NCBI GenBank assembly: GCA_050250895.1
Contig: JBFWNU010000001.1
Coordinates: 2,022,210-2,086,209 of the forward strand
DNA from: Vulcanimicrobiota bacterium
GTDB taxonomy: Bacteria; Vulcanimicrobiota; Xenobia; Xenobiales; JADMJV01
Length of the DNA: 64,000 nucleotides
Reading direction: 5' to 3'
The position numbers and the translations under genes are program-made. Within the stretch, counting starts at the first letter, position 1, and every line of letters begins with the position of its first letter. The notes beneath the pieces were generated by a model. That model worked only from the letters and a program-made list of their open reading frames with translations. It did no database searches and was not told the DNA's origin. Shown piece by piece: positions 33,926-36,610 of this stretch.

Positions 33926-34693
33926 TTACGGAAAATAGAGAGTGAAGTGATCCGGGTCTTGATAGGCGATCGTATCGAGGGGTTCGCCCAGTTGGCGATA
34001 CTTTCGCAGGATGGTCTGACCGGCTGCATTAAGCTTCGCAGACCAGTCGGCTCCCTCCTCCAGGTCGTATTGGGGCACCTCGCCCCGTTTGGACGTCACC
34101 ATGCGAGCCTGGCCCAGCACCCCGGCCACTTCGGGCTTGTCGTCGAGGGGATAGAGGTAGACCTTTTTCTCGACCAGGTCTGGGCCCTCGTAGGTGTACG
34201 AGACGAGCCCCTCGGCCCGATGGGCCGCCAGGTCGTAGCCAGCCACCAATTCCTTGAGATGGGACGGCAGCAGCGACAGGTCGCGGGCTCTTAGATACAG
34301 CTTGAACTGGCCTTCTTGAAGGTCCCAGCCCAACCCGTAGAAGCGAAAGTCCGGCCCGTACTCTTGGGGAACGGCGATGCCTCGTTCGGCCAGCACCGGG
34401 GCGGCCCCGGCGAAGGCCTCTTCGGGGTGCGTGACCGAGCCGTAAGCCATGCGCGAAGAGTTGACCTTGTCGCCGTCGACGCGGTGGCTATAGGTATAGT
34501 AGCTGAAATGCTCATAGCCACCCTCTGAGGTCTCGGCGAACGACTGGGCCAGGCGAAAGCAGGTCTCGAGATAGTCTTTTTCGAGGCTCGACAGGCGCCG
34601 GCGAAAAGGAAAGAAGTGGCGGGTGTGCCAGCTGAGCAGATGGCGATGATAGTTGAGGATCGAGTAATCCACGCCGCCTGATTCGACCGCCAC
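33926..34693 (-). CDS. hypothetical protein (~255 aa; ...VDYSILNYHRHLLSWHTRHFFPF...YGLGWDLQEGQFKLYLRARD...)
   Basis: The 3' portion of ORF 33926..35548 is protein-like. The upstream half of that ORF is antisense to the thioredoxin-like gene and is rejected. The start is probably GTG 34693, with GTG 34672 as an alternative. There is no in-frame ATG nearby. Confidence 0.45.
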   Translation of the reverse strand: MAVESGGVDYSILNYHRHLLSWHTRHFFPFRRRLSSLEKDYLETCFRLAQSFAETSEGGYEHFSYYTYSHRVDGDKVNSSRMAYGSVTHPEEAFAGAAPVLAERGIAVPQEYGPDFRFYGLGWDLQEGQFKLYLRARDLSLLPSHLKELVAGYDLAAHRAEGLVSYTYEGPDLVEKKVYLYPLDDKPEVAGVLGQARMVTSKRGEVPQYDLEEGADWSAKLNAAGQTILRKYRQLGEPLDTIAYQDPDHFTLYFP

Positions 34694-34747
34694 ACTTTCG
34701 ATACATTCTGACCAGATTTTTATGGGTCTTTGAACTATCCTGAGGTT

Positions 34748-35683
34748 ATGACTAGAAGAATCCTCGCCACCCTCCTGCTCTGTTTGACCCTCCCCCTGGC
34801 GGCCGACGAGGCCGGAATCATCTGGTTTGGCACCCTCGAGGACGGTCTCAAAGAGGCGGCCCGCACGCACAAGCCGATTCTGTTGATGTCGGCAGCCCCG
34901 CACTGTCACAACGTCCCGGGCATCTGGTGACCGGCTAAGCAAGACGCCGACAGGAGTTTCCTGTCGCAACCGGAGGTCATCGCAGCCTCCCGAAAGTTTG
35001 TCTGCGTGCGGCTGGCCACTTATGAGAACGCCAAGGAAGGAGCCTATTTGAAGGCTTTGTTCCAGACCGGCTCGGGGGAGCTGGAGAATAGTGTCTTTGC
35101 CATCTTGAGCCCCGACGCCAAGGCCTATCTGGTGCCGGCCGGGCGCTCGCCTCGGATGGTCTTCGGCACCGCCCAGCGCATGGCCCAGAGCATGGAAGAG
35201 ATCGGTTCTCGCTATCACGGCAGCACCGCCACTTCGGACCGGTTGCCCAAAATGGCCAATGTCCGCCTGGCTCTCAATGTGGCCGCCTGTGACGACGTGC
35301 CCCTGGTGATCGCGGTGGGTCGCACCGCCAAAGAAGAACGGGCCCTCGAGCAGCGGCTGGCCAACTGGGCCTGGAATTCTTACTTCGCCGGGCGGGCCGA
35401 GTATGCCACCGCCACCAACCTGGCCGAGCTTTCGATGATCAGCGGCGCCAAGCCGGCCAGCGGCTATGTGGTGGTCCAACCCGACCGCTTTGGCCAGCAG
35501 GGCACCGTCATCGCGACCATCGACGGCGATGCGAAGTTGCCCGACCAATTATGGGAGGCCATCGGGCGCTATCAGTCGGCCGGCCAAAAGGATACCGGTT
35601 CGCACATTTCGGCGGGACGCCAGAAGGGTGTTTACTGGCAGACCGTCATTCCCGTCACCGACCCCGGTCCGCGAGGTCGTTAG
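34748..35683 (+). CDS. secreted thioredoxin-fold protein (Thioredoxin_7 / DsbD-gamma-like) with a C-terminal extension. An in-frame TGA at 34928-34930 interrupts the frame, so it is either a selenoprotein candidate or a pseudogene.
   Basis: ORFs 34730..34930 and 35006..35683 are in the same frame. Joined, they read ...IIWFGTLEDGLKEAARTHKPILLMSAAPHCHNVPGIW-[TGA]-PAKQDADRSFLSQPEVIAASRKFVCVRLATYENAKEGAYLKALF.... This matches the i.W..leeAl..AkkegKPvlvdfyAdWCgpC...dpeV...ln..FV.vkvD thioredoxin-domain pattern across the stop. A 7-bp hairpin, CGACAGG-agttt-CCTGTCG, lies 17 nt downstream of the TGA. Confidence 0.45.
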
Positions 35684-35707: not shown

Positions 35708-36610
35708 GTGATCGAACTCGAACGCTACGGCCCGGTCGAGGCCTTCCACCACGGGCGCTCGCCCTTCGGATTCTTGAAGCCGGTCATGTCGGTGCGCTGC
35801 TACCAGGTCGACGGTCTTCTGATCGACTCTGGGTTGAGCGTCTTCTCCTCGGCCGTCGGCCGCTGGGCCGTGGATAGGGGGGCGCGTCGCGCCCTCATCA
35901 CCCATCACCACGAGGACCACAGTGGCAACTCCAAAACCCTGCAGGGACACGGGCTCGAGGTGCTGGCCTCGCAACGAACCAACGACTGGGTGGAACGGGG
36001 CTTTTCGATCCGACTTTATCAACAGCTGGTGTGGGCGCCCGCCCCTCCCACCCGGCTGAGCCCGCTACCGCAGGTGGTCGAGACCGACCGCTATCGTTTC
36101 GAAGCTCTGCCCGCCCCCGGGCATTGCGACGATCAGATGGTCTTCTTCGAGGCCGACCAGGGGTGGCTCTTTTCGGGTGATGCCTTTCTGGCTCGCCGCA
36201 TCAAGTATTTTCGGGCCGACGAGGATTTCGCCGCCACCGTCGACTCGTTGCGCCGGTTGACTCGATTGGACTTTGGTGACCTCTTCTGCGCCCACCGTCC
36301 CGTGATGAAGACCGGCCAAGAGGCGCTGGCCGCCAAGCTGCAATTTCTCGAAGACCTCGAAGGCCGGGTGCGCGAGTTACATCAACAGGGCCTCGGTCCG
36401 CGAGCCATCACTCGCCAGCTGCTGGGGCCCGAGTCGTGGCTGTTCTATCTCTTTTCCTGGGGTGATCTATCCAAACTCAACCTGGTGCGCTCTATCCTTT
36501 TTGGACCGACGCTTCGAGCGGACTACCCGCCAGTCGGCGCCACTGCAGGGCGGCCTCTCGGCGAGAGCTACGAAAAAGCAAGCCAAAGTGACCTAGAACC
36601 TGGCCCGTGA
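35708..36610 (+). CDS. metallo-beta-lactamase fold hydrolase
   Basis: HxHxDH motif ITHHHEDHSGN, together with downstream His/Asp ligands (PGHCDD, SGDAF, CAHRPV). GTG start. Its 3' end overlaps the convergent gene by ~119 nt, so one of the two ends may be mis-set. Confidence 0.75.
   Translation: MIELERYGPVEAFHHGRSPFGFLKPVMSVRCYQVDGLLIDSGLSVFSSAVGRWAVDRGARRALITHHHEDHSGNSKTLQGHGLEVLASQRTNDWVERGFSIRLYQQLVWAPAPPTRLSPLPQVVETDRYRFEALPAPGHCDDQMVFFEADQGWLFSGDAFLARRIKYFRADEDFAATVDSLRRLTRLDFGDLFCAHRPVMKTGQEALAAKLQFLEDLEGRVRELHQQGLGPRAITRQLLGPESWLFYLFSWGDLSKLNLVRSILFGPTLRADYPPVGATAGRPLGESYEKASQSDLEPGP

What the first reader, a model, noticed from the sequence alone, without database searches (positions are those of the whole stretch)
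34748..35683. Secreted thioredoxin-fold protein interrupted by an in-frame TGA followed by a hairpin: selenoprotein candidate or fresh pseudogene
Two ORF-track entries, 34730..34930 and 35006..35683, are in the same frame. Joined, they give one continuous Thioredoxin_7/DsbD-gamma-like domain in which the alignment runs straight through the TGA at 34928. A perfect 7-bp hairpin with a GU-containing loop begins 17 nt after the TGA, in a position consistent with a bacterial SECIS element. TGA is demonstrably an ordinary stop elsewhere in this window. The expected CxxC is reduced to a single Cys (CHNV), and the TGA-encoded residue falls in W-[U]-PAK just downstream, which could supply the second redox partner. 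No sel genes are visible in the window. A nonsense mutation is the more conservative explanation.
Basis: partly seen in the sequence, partly recalled or inferred. Interest (0 to 1): 0.55.

Follow-up and report, generated by a model that had tools for sequence, protein, structure and literature searches.

The report
Unrecognised secreted selenoprotein gene family
The TGA inside this gene is not a mutation but a conserved selenocysteine codon followed by its RNA hairpin signal. It marks a widespread exported thioredoxin-like selenoprotein family that gene callers cut in two and that the selenoprotein catalogues I could check do not list.

Summary
One frame runs 34748-35683, with an in-frame TGA at 34928-34930 and an 8-bp hairpin with a GUU loop at 34948-34966.

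The pseudogene reading is rejected. All 80 related genome loci, one metagenome locus and the window carry TGA at the same column. These come mostly from Planctomycetota and Verrucomicrobiota. Protein sequence is conserved on both sides of the TGA.

The hairpin is conserved, with compensatory changes in 6 of 8 pairs and strongly biased synonymous codons (Arg AGG 93% against 5% background). It meets all four published bacterial SECIS criteria. The two Cys forms found (TGT, TGC) have lost or weakened it.

In one relative the gene lies directly downstream of selC-selD-selA-x-selB. Three others have tRNA-Sec, SelA or SelB within 10 kb.

Sec most likely sits at the canonical active-site position of a DsbD-gamma/AGR2-like thioredoxin fold (W-U-P-G-K), with an invariant Cys eight residues upstream and a second thioredoxin-like domain after it. 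A signal peptide points to export.

No NCBIfam selenoprotein model and no entry in a 2026 list of 119 families matches. Databases hold over a thousand split calls.

The source genome's own sel genes could not be checked. The biochemical function is inferred, not shown.

The parts
34748..35683 (+). Complete selenoprotein coding sequence: 311 codons, Sec at codon 61, stop TAG at 35681-35683. It is annotated in databases as two pieces, a 60-aa fragment and the 225-aa protein P0001.
   Evidence: tblastn matches in 80 genome loci run from about residue 1-26 to about 305, across the TGA.
34748..34804 (+). Predicted Sec-type signal peptide MTRRILATLLLCLTLPLAA, with a probable cleavage after LAA. This is inferred by inspection; no predictor was run.
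   Evidence: The N-terminal fragments displayed in the 71-fragment homologue alignment nearly all begin with M, one or two K/R and a hydrophobic stretch.
34817..35203 (+). N-terminal thioredoxin-fold domain (residues about 24-152), of the DsbD-gamma / DsbH / AGR2 type. It carries the Sec.
   Evidence: Pfam Thioredoxin_7, weak. AF2 model of the Cys homologue P0005. Foldseek hits to DsbD-gamma, DsbH, AGR2/3 and PDI. HMMER hits to AGR2/AGR3/TXNDC12.
34904..34927 (+). Eight-residue insertion C-H-N-V-P-G-I-W relative to AGR2. It begins with the invariant Cys53 (34904-34906), the candidate resolving partner (C-x7-U), and ends with the invariant Trp60.
   Evidence: alignment gap of 8. (C, G and W are invariant columns).
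34928..34930 (+). UGA selenocysteine codon (Sec61), in the motif W-U-P-A-K (family consensus W-U-P-G-K).
   Evidence: TGA at this column in 80 of 80 genome loci, L001 and the window. TGT/TGC in the Cys forms P0005 and P0004.
34948..34966 (+). Bacterial SECIS hairpin: 8-bp stem (34948-34955 with 34959-34966) and apical loop GUU (34956-34958), encoded by the conserved peptide D-R-S-F-L-S.
   Evidence: Covariation: 94.8% of cells paired, 6 of 8 pairs with compensatory changes, 0 of 500 shuffles as good. RNAalifold gives the same hairpin. Codon bias. Criteria taken from PMC13188914.
34931..35005 (+). 25 conserved codons (PAKQDADRSFLSQPEVIAASRKFVC) with no in-frame ATG/GTG/TTG before 35006. They can be translated only by reading through the UGA.
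   Evidence: the first start after the stop is GTG at 35006. Conservation.
35243..35572 (+). Second thioredoxin-like domain (residues about 166-275). It has no CxxC, contains the conserved N-V-A-A-C-D-x-x-P-L-V stretch, and is probably redox-inactive, like a PDI b domain.
   Evidence: AF2 pLDDT above 90. Foldseek alignments of about 250-270 columns to PDI, ERp44 and calsequestrin tandem Trx domains. MAFFT cross-aligned N-terminal fragments to this region.
35603..35665 (+). Conserved C-terminal motif H-x3-G-x3-G-x2-W-x-T-x2-P-V-T-D-P, specific to this family. Its role is unknown.
   Evidence: Invariant columns H286, G290, G294, W297, P302, T304 and D305.

Best explanation
34748-35683 is one intact gene for an exported two-domain thioredoxin-fold selenoprotein.

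Decoding. At UGA61 the ribosome does not terminate. The hairpin whose GUU loop lies 25 nt downstream acts as a bacterial SECIS, recruiting SelB-GTP-Sec-tRNA(Sec). Selenocysteine is inserted and translation continues to TAG at 35681. This step is inferred by analogy; the sequence criteria were tested and met.

Export. The N-terminal signal peptide sends the protein across the cytoplasmic membrane. This is inferred from the sequence.

Active site. Sec61 sits at the N-cap of the active-site helix, where CxxC thioredoxins have their attacking Cys. The usual second Cys is Lys (U-P-A/G-K).

Chemistry. An invariant Cys eight residues upstream, in a family-specific insertion, most likely forms a selenenylsulfide with Sec during turnover. 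On this reading the protein is a periplasmic selenol/thiol oxidoreductase, either reductase-like or peroxidase-like. The second domain would be a redox-inactive, substrate- or partner-binding thioredoxin-like module, as in PDI a-b pairs. The chemistry and the substrate are inferred, not shown.
For: 1. Position. TGA is at the identical column in 80 of 80 genome loci, L001 and the window, across Planctomycetota, Verrucomicrobiota and Vulcanimicrobiota/Eremiobacterota-labelled and other MAGs. Protein sequence is conserved on both sides.

2. Cys forms. Two rare homologues have TGT/TGC at exactly this column (P0005, P0004).

3. Hairpin conservation. 94.8% of cells are paired, against 33-59% when the partner is slid. 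Six of 8 pairs show compensatory changes, and 0 of 500 shuffles reach the observed values. RNAalifold gives the same structure.

4. Synonymous constraint in the hairpin. Arg is AGG in 51 of 55 cases against 4.9% in the rest of the same genes. Ser is AGT in 58 of 58 against 16%.

5. The hairpin decays in Cys forms. It is destroyed in L082 and has lost the GU loop in L083.

6. The window hairpin meets all four published bSECIS constraints: loop 3 nt with G first, 8-bp stem, 25-nt spacing, -12.3 kcal/mol.

7. sel genes nearby. In L077, tRNA-Sec, SelD, SelA, an unrelated gene and SelB lie directly upstream and co-oriented. L039 has tRNA-Sec 1.8 kb upstream, L073 has SelA and L006 has SelB within 10 kb.

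8. In the window, the 25 conserved codons after the TGA have no start codon of their own.

9. Database signature. About 117 of the 120 best full-query hits cover only the part after the Sec column, and all ten truncated hits whose sequences were read begin at MD[RG]S[FY]LS, just after it. All 150 best cluster representatives also begin after it. There are 1125 N-terminal fragment clusters, and all 71 that were aligned end at ...G-x-W.

10. Fold. AF2 and Foldseek give two tandem Trx-fold domains, the N-domain like DsbD-gamma, DsbH or AGR2. HMMER aligns the Sec column with AGR2 Cys81 of CPHS, with identical spacing of 23 residues to the next strand. In model 2 the helix starts at the residue after the Sec column.

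11. The TGA is present in an independent assembly.
Against: The window has no tRNA-Sec and no selA/B/D, so the Sec machinery of this particular genome is unverified.

The hairpin alone is only about a 1-in-100 event per TGA, and the local fold z-score is -1.35.

The Pfam Thioredoxin_7 hit is below its cut-off.

The active-site loop has pLDDT below 50 in both AF2 models. The PDB sequence hits are weak (E 0.02-0.4), and AGR3 aligns its Cys with Cys53 instead. The assignment of Sec to the canonical position is therefore likely but not certain.

No conserved operon partner suggests a substrate or reductant. There is no experimental evidence of selenium incorporation.
Confidence: 0.88

Rival explanations
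1. Fresh pseudogene: a recent nonsense mutation (for example TGG or TGC to TGA) inactivated an ordinary thioredoxin-like gene in this genome.
For: It is the default reading of an in-frame stop. TGA is a normal stop in the window. No sel genes are in the window.
Against: TGA is the ancestral, near-universal state: 82 of 82 sequences examined at DNA level. Sense codons at this column are the rare exception: 2 Cys, 1 Leu, 1 Arg. Both halves remain open and conserved. The upstream 32 residues are 62% identical to the nearest relative by hand count, against 56% for the best aligned segment of the whole protein. A real decayed copy (L015) shows extra TAG stops and a degenerate motif.
Confidence: 0.02
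2. Relic selenoprotein gene: the family is a true selenoprotein family, but this genome has lost Sec decoding. Here the gene would yield only a 60-aa peptide, or nothing useful, and would be on its way to decay.
For: The sel machinery could not be checked for this genome. Loss of the Sec trait is common in bacterial evolution (general knowledge).
Against: The hairpin is perfectly intact, including a compensatory C-G swap at the basal pair. There are no frameshifts or extra stops in 311 codons. Eremiobacterota/Vulcanimicrobiota-labelled relatives (L036, L080, P0184) also keep the TGA form. A 98%-identical N-terminal fragment from another sample (P0215) is 60 aa long, as expected if it too ends at the TGA; its sequence was not read.
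Confidence: 0.06
3. Two separate genes: a small secreted peptide ending at TGA, and an independent C-terminal protein initiated downstream. The downstream start would be the conserved ATG five codons after the TGA in most homologues, or GTG 35006 here.
For: Gene callers annotate it this way everywhere. A Met five codons after the TGA is nearly invariant in the family.
Against: In the window that Met is Ala, and no in-frame start exists before 35006, yet the 25 intervening residues are conserved. One thioredoxin fold spans the junction. The C-terminal piece would lack a signal peptide and half of its first domain. Cys forms are single ORFs.
Confidence: 0.02
4. Read-through without selenium: the UGA is decoded by a near-cognate or suppressor tRNA (Trp, Cys or Arg), or the hairpin is a generic read-through stimulator rather than a SECIS.
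For: The inserted residue has not been identified experimentally. Hairpins can stimulate read-through in other systems (general knowledge).
Against: The hairpin fits the SelB-type bSECIS model, including G then U in the apical loop. The column is Cys in the sense-codon forms. The gene is adjacent to selC-selD-selA-selB in L077, and to tRNA-Sec, SelA or SelB in three other loci.
Confidence: 0.02

Closest known systems
Thioredoxin-fold bacterial selenoproteins (Sec-Trx, Sec-Grx, DsbA-like, thiol:disulfide interchange protein, TlpA-like; UxxC/CxxU families listed in PMC13188914 Table 1)
   Same: In-frame UGA at the redox-active position of a thioredoxin fold, with a bSECIS hairpin immediately downstream inside the coding region. 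Several of these families are predicted to be exported.
   Different: The motif is U-x-x-K: the second Cys is replaced by Lys. The partner Cys sits eight residues upstream in an insertion. A second thioredoxin-like domain and a family-specific C-terminal motif follow. [quoted passage not shown]
VPGUxxT family thioredoxin-like (seleno)protein, type 2 (NCBIfam NF041383; 'OS_HP5')
   Same: Best NCBIfam hit. The profile length is similar (287 positions), it is a thioredoxin-like selenoprotein, and a V-P-G tripeptide lies just before the Sec region.
   Different: The score is 18.7 bits against a 275-bit cut-off, and only profile positions 6-123 align. Sec follows V-P-G-x-W rather than V-P-G directly, and the following motif is P-G-K rather than x-x-T. 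At best it is a distant sister family.
AGR2 / AGR3 / TXNDC12 (ERp18): single-domain PDI-family proteins
   Same: Closest solved structures by sequence and among the top structural hits. AGR2 has a single active-site Cys (C-P-H-S) that aligns with U-P-G-K, with identical spacing to the next strand.
   Different: These are eukaryotic ER proteins with Cys, not Sec. They lack the 8-residue insertion and have no second domain. E-values are only 0.02-0.2.
DsbD gamma domain / DsbH (Pfam Thioredoxin_7, Thioredox_DsbH)
   Same: Same fold subtype, with TM-score about 0.6 normalised to the target. They are periplasmic, and the weak Pfam matches are to these families.
   Different: DsbD-gamma has a CxxC and receives electrons from the membrane domain. 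Here there is no CxxC, the Pfam score is below threshold, and the cis-Pro loop reads E-N-T, with invariant E113 and N114.
E. coli fdhF-type bacterial SECIS / the consensus bSECIS model (bSECISearch)
   Same: A stem-loop in the coding region just after the UGA, with G then U in a small apical loop and spacing and energy within the model.
   Different: The loop is very short (3 nt) on a perfect 8-bp stem, with no bulged U in the window copy. The nucleotide sequence is unusually invariant across phyla. SelB binding is untested.
Protein disulfide isomerase a-b domain pairs / ERp44
   Same: Tandem thioredoxin-fold domains, the first catalytic and the second without a redox motif.
   Different: The similarity is at fold level only (11-14% identity, rmsd above 15 A over both domains). 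The relative domain orientation is not comparable.

Membership tests
Bacterial selenoprotein gene | In-frame UGA conserved at the same column in homologues from different taxa | tested here: met
   TGA in 80 of 80 genome loci, L001 and the window.
Bacterial selenoprotein gene | Cys (or Sec) at the aligned column in sense-codon homologues (Sec/Cys pair) | tested here: met
   P0005 has TGT and P0004 has TGC at the column. The Leu form (P0003, TTA) and the Arg form (P0387) look like one-step mutants; TTA is one nucleotide from TGA, and P0387 ends early in unrelated sequence.
Bacterial selenoprotein gene | Protein-level conservation on both sides of the UGA | tested here: met
   Invariant P, C, G and W upstream and P, K, D, L, C, R downstream. 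tblastn runs across the stop.
Bacterial selenoprotein gene | Sec-decoding machinery (selA, selB, selC, selD) in the same genome | not testable with these tools
   Absent from the 64-kb window, and the rest of the 3.95-Mb contig could not be read. Met in relatives: L077 has the full cluster, L039 tRNA-Sec, L073 SelA and L006 SelB.
Bacterial selenoprotein gene | Selenium demonstrably incorporated (75Se labelling or mass spectrometry) | not testable with these tools
   This needs an experiment.
Consensus bacterial SECIS (bSECISearch model as given in PMC13188914) | Apical loop of 3-9 nt on an upper stem of 4-16 bp | tested here: met
   Loop GUU (3 nt) and an 8-bp stem, 34948-34966.
Consensus bacterial SECIS (bSECISearch model as given in PMC13188914) | G in one of the first two loop positions, usually followed by G or U | tested here: met
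   The loop is G-U-U. The G is at least 90% conserved across 65 sequences.
Consensus bacterial SECIS (bSECISearch model as given in PMC13188914) | 16-37 nt between the UGA and the apical loop | tested here: met
   25 nt (34931-34955).
Consensus bacterial SECIS (bSECISearch model as given in PMC13188914) | Minimum free energy of -7.5 kcal/mol or lower | tested here: met
   -12.3 kcal/mol for the 24-nt hairpin segment.
Consensus bacterial SECIS (bSECISearch model as given in PMC13188914) | Structure maintained by evolution (covariation) and bound by SelB | tested here: inconclusive
   Covariation is met: 6 of 8 pairs compensatory, 0 of 500 shuffles as good. Synonymous-codon constraint is met. 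SelB binding is not testable here.
Pfam Thioredoxin_7 (PF13899) | Score at or above the gathering threshold (27 bits) | tested here: not met
   21.2 bits, E 3.3e-4. The fold-level resemblance to DsbD-gamma/DsbH is supported separately.
NCBIfam NF041383, VPGUxxT thioredoxin-like (seleno)protein type 2 | Score at or above the curated cut-off (275 bits), with the V-P-G-U-x-x-T motif | tested here: not met
   18.7 bits. The motif here is V-P-G-x-W-U-P-G-K.
NCBIfam NF041199, Trx7/PDZ (seleno)protein | Score at or above the cut-off (300 bits), a CxxU motif and a PDZ domain | tested here: not met
   13.3 bits, with no PDZ domain and no CxxU.

The most novel reading that the evidence does not exclude
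This is an essentially Sec-obligate, exported oxidoreductase family. Only 2 Cys forms were found among more than a thousand database clusters. Its chemistry (U-x-x-K with a Cys eight residues upstream in a loop) would not tolerate sulfur in place of selenium. It may be one of the proteins that keeps the selenocysteine trait alive in Planctomycetota and Verrucomicrobiota, as its position directly behind selC-selD-selA-selB in one genome hints. It would have escaped the catalogues because discovery methods rely on Sec/Cys pairs.
Probability: 0.3. Interest if true: 0.7.

Novelty: new member of a known kind. Interest (0 to 1): 0.55.

Why it matters
Annotation. Public databases hold this family almost only as two broken pieces. 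One search found 1125 N-terminal fragment clusters. One search found 629 cluster representatives of the C-terminal piece (E up to 0.001), and the best 150 all begin after the Sec column. The pieces are named 'hypothetical protein' or 'thioredoxin family protein'. One family model with the Sec position would repair them.

Biology. [quoted passage not shown] A widespread family that is almost never found with Cys is a natural test case for what selenium does that sulfur cannot. It is especially useful because it sits in an exported, presumably oxidising compartment.

Methods. It also shows a blind spot of selenoprotein discovery based on Sec/Cys pairs.

Tried and rejected
1. Rfam, at gathering thresholds on the whole window and in permissive mode on 34880-35020, found nothing relevant. 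No bacterial SECIS match was returned, so this is uninformative.

I used the Cys homologue P0005 instead.

3. A first combined alignment of N-terminal and C-terminal fragments (A5) misaligned the N-terminal fragments onto the second domain and was discarded. A8 fixed this, but the active-site loop stayed at low confidence.

4. A scan of the window for other genes split by TGA, using GC3, gave 38 candidates with no discrimination. None besides 34928 was convincing. It therefore gives no independent sign of Sec use in this genome.

5. The search for a conserved neighbour found only lineage-specific synteny (a sulfatase in Verrucomicrobia, kinases) and the gene's own N-terminal extension.

6. I could not reach the rest of the source contig to look for sel genes.

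7. The long minus-strand ORF 33926-35548 overlapping the gene was considered and rejected as a high-GC antisense artefact. The called gene there is 33926-34693.

8. A genome-wide UGA reassignment (codes 4 or 25) was rejected, because TGA closes 12 of 45 long ORFs.
Full report
**Observation**

The window has an ATG at 34748. Codon 61 is TGA at 34928-34930 (…G-I-W-*-P-A-K…). The same frame stays open to TAG at 35681-35683, giving 311 codons.

A perfect hairpin follows. The loop is GUU at 34956-34958, and the energy is -12.3 kcal/mol.

Pfam Thioredoxin_7 matches residues 26-94, across the stop, but only at 21.2 bits, below its 27-bit threshold. TGA closes 12 of 45 long high-GC3 ORFs in the window, so it is a normal stop here. 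There is no tRNA, no Rfam hit and no SelA/B/D match in the 64 kb.

On its own the hairpin is not remarkable. 17 of 1635 TGA trinucleotides in the window (about 1%) are followed by an equally good hairpin in the permitted position, and the local fold z-score is -1.35. An independent Logan assembly seen in two samples is identical over 10,358 bp, including the TGA.

**The TGA is ancestral and nearly universal**

- A search with the joined protein gave 404 hits. About 117 of the best 120 cover only the roughly 78% of the query that follows the TGA. All ten truncated hits whose sequences were read begin at 'MD[RG]S[FY]LS…', five codons after the TGA column.
- A scan of one genome per species found 256 relatives. 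In all 80 loci kept, the tblastn match runs from about residue 1-26 through about 305, across the stop.
- Reading the DNA shows TGA at the same column in all 80, in a metagenome locus (L001) and in the window. The context is …A-A-P-[HQ]-C-x-x-[VI]-[SP]-G-x-W-TGA-P-G-K-Q-x-M-D-R-S-F-L-S….
- The loci are mostly Planctomycetota and Verrucomicrobiota MAGs. A few are labelled Vulcanimicrobiota, Omnitrophota, Armatimonas or other groups.
- A profile of the 48 residues before and around the site found 1125 database clusters. The best 120 are all 41-84 aa long. The 71 that were aligned all end at …G-x-W.
- An exhaustive profile search of 1.84 billion cluster representatives found 629 members. All of the best 150 start at or after the 'MDRSFLS' position, downstream of the Sec column.
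- Proteins that span the site are very rare. There are two Cys forms (P0004 TGC, P0005 TGT), one Leu form (P0003, TTA) and one truncated Arg form (P0387).
- A copy with two additional in-frame TAG stops and a degenerate motif (L015) shows what real decay of this gene looks like.

The 'fresh nonsense mutation' reading is therefore rejected.

**The hairpin behaves as a SECIS**

In 65 distinct sequences, 94.8% of pair cells form standard pairs, against 33-59% when the 3' partner is slid by 1-3 columns. Six of 8 pairs show compensatory double changes, and none of 500 shuffles reaches the observed values. RNAalifold recovers the same hairpin.

The window copy itself carries a compensatory swap: the basal pair is C-G instead of the usual G-C.

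The hairpin is encoded by D-R-S-F-L-S, and its synonymous sites are constrained. Arg is AGG in 51 of 55 genes, against 4.9% of Arg codons in the rest of the same genes. Ser is AGT in 58 of 58, against 16%. Leu is CTG in 56 of 63, against 37%.

In the Cys forms the element decays. It is destroyed in L082, and the GU loop is lost in L083. The Leu form, one nucleotide from TGA, still has it.

The published consensus model requires four things (PMC13188914):

- a 3-9 nt loop on a 4-16 bp stem;
- G in the first two loop positions, mostly followed by G or U;
- 16-37 nt between the UGA and the loop;
- an energy of -7.5 kcal/mol or lower.

The window element has a 3-nt GUU loop, an 8-bp stem, 25-nt spacing and -12.3 kcal/mol, so all four are met.

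**Link to the Sec machinery**

In L077 (a Verrucomicrobiales MAG) the gene lies directly downstream of, and co-oriented with, tRNA-Sec, SelD, SelA, a 313-aa gene (not scanned here) and SelB. That 313-aa gene sits where the transglutaminase-like gene lies in the published Rhodopirellula sel operon (PMC4807772).

L039 has tRNA-Sec 1.8 kb upstream. L073 has SelA and L006 has SelB within 10 kb. Of only five tRNAs found in the flanks of 60 loci, two are tRNA-Sec. Planctomycetes with complete sel gene sets are documented (PMC4807772).

The window genome's own machinery could not be examined. This is the main open point.

**Evidence internal to the window**

Most homologues have a Met five codons after the TGA, which is why gene callers restart there. 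In the window that residue is Ala, and there is no in-frame ATG/GTG/TTG before 35006. Even so, the 25 intervening residues (PAKQDADRSFLSQPEVIAASRKFVC) are conserved, so they can only be made by reading through the UGA.

The 32 residues upstream of the TGA are 62% identical to the nearest relative (L002) by hand count. The best aligned segment of the whole protein is 56% identical.

**What the protein is**

The N-terminus (MTRRILATLLLCLTLPLAA) looks like a Sec-type signal peptide, and the homologues' N-terminal fragments that were displayed look alike. This is by inspection only.

AF2 models of the Cys homologue P0005 are confident (pLDDT above 90) for almost all of residues 205-495. They show two tandem thioredoxin-like domains. 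Foldseek gives PDI, ERp44 and calsequestrin over both domains, and DsbD-gamma, DsbH, a Thioredox_DsbH protein and AGR2/AGR3 for the first domain.

A profile of the N-domain finds AGR2, AGR3 and TXNDC12 as the closest solved sequences, at E 0.02-0.2. HMMER aligns the Sec column to Cys81 of the AGR2 C-P-H-S motif, places an 8-residue insertion (C-x-x-V-x-G-x-W) immediately before it, and finds the same 23-residue spacing to the next strand. In the second model the active-site helix starts at the residue after the Sec column.

The loop itself has pLDDT below 50 in both models, and AGR3 aligns its Cys to Cys53 instead. The assignment is therefore likely, not certain.

On this reading the motif is W-U-P-[GA]-K. 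Sec is the attacking residue, Lys replaces the usual resolving Cys, and the invariant Cys53 sits eight residues upstream (C-x7-U) as the probable resolving partner. The cis-Pro loop position carries invariant E113 and N114, and a further invariant Cys (C86) lies in the next strand.

The second domain has no redox motif. MAFFT even cross-aligned N-terminal fragments to it, which hints at an internal duplication.

No operon partner is conserved across phyla. The function I commit to is a periplasmic selenol/thiol oxidoreductase cycling through a Sec61-Cys53 selenenylsulfide. This is inferred from the fold and motif only, and I hold the chemistry at about 50% confidence.

**Comparison with what is known**

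The kind is known: a thioredoxin-fold bacterial selenoprotein with a coding-region SECIS. The family apparently is not.

NCBIfam release 20 gives only sub-threshold hits: 18.7 bits to the VPGUxxT thioredoxin-like selenoprotein model (cut-off 275) and 13.3 bits to Trx7/PDZ (cut-off 300). The 2026 catalogue of 119 prokaryotic selenoprotein families lists nothing with this motif or architecture. Source annotations are 'hypothetical protein' or a truncated 'thioredoxin family protein'.

A plausible reason is that discovery pipelines depend on Sec/Cys pairs, and this family has almost no Cys members. That runs contrary to the rule that Cys homologues far outnumber Sec forms.

Three caveats apply. 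I could not query BSepDB. I could not check the groundwater-MAG candidate lists. An unnamed 'hypothetical' candidate in PMC4807772 Table S9 might be this family.

**Verdict**

This is a genuine selenoprotein gene (confidence about 0.88 for this window, higher for the family). It is a new member of a known kind and of moderate interest. The interest rests on its breadth, its near-obligate use of Sec, its export, and its systematic mis-annotation.

Noticed in passing
L077:4499-9809: A compact selC(tRNA-Sec)-selD-selA-(313-aa gene)-selB cluster lies directly upstream of, and co-oriented with, the family gene. The selD-selA-x-selB order matches that reported for a Rhodopirellula isolate in PMC4807772, where x is a transglutaminase-like gene; the 313-aa gene was not scanned here.
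   Followed up: partly
window 1-64000: Among 45 long high-GC3 ORFs the stop codons are TAG 23, TGA 12 and TAA 10. That is an unusually TAG-rich usage for a 63% GC genome.
   Followed up: no
L048:9539-10120; also P0003, P0005, P0485, P0490: About 22 of 69 loci, including Gemmataceae MAGs, carry a long N-terminal extension in the same ORF. It consists of repeated helical hairpins with an L-T-x-E-Q motif (weak Spy/CpxP-like hit) and Pro/Gly-rich linkers before the thioredoxin domain. The window copy lacks it.
   Followed up: partly
L015:5548-6313: This copy has the Sec TGA plus two further in-frame TAG stops (5650, 6037) and a degenerate motif (PGFQTMTRSFWLD). It is probably a true pseudogene, but TAG recoding in that genome was not excluded.
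   Followed up: partly
L084:4913 (P0003), and P0387: Two homologues have Leu (TTA) or Arg at the Sec column. In L084 the SECIS hairpin is still intact, and P0387 is truncated. These look like recent inactivating mutations or sequencing errors.
   Followed up: partly
window 33926-35548 (minus strand): A 540-aa minus-strand ORF overlaps most of the selenoprotein gene. Only 33926-34693 (255 aa, no Pfam hit) is called as a gene in the independent assembly. The rest reads as a high-GC antisense artefact. The real gene is divergently transcribed, with only 54 bp between the two starts.
   Followed up: partly
window 35243-35320 versus 34817-34900: MAFFT aligned N-terminal fragments (IAWFGTW..GLAEA.RTGRPILL) onto the start of the second domain (LP.VANVRLALNVAACDNQPLVV). 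This suggests the two thioredoxin-like domains arose by internal duplication.
   Followed up: no
window 35708-36610: The gene 25 bp downstream on the same strand is a metallo-beta-lactamase-fold protein (Lactamase_B; HHHEDH motif) ending in TGA. It did not appear among the conserved neighbour clusters across loci.
   Followed up: partly
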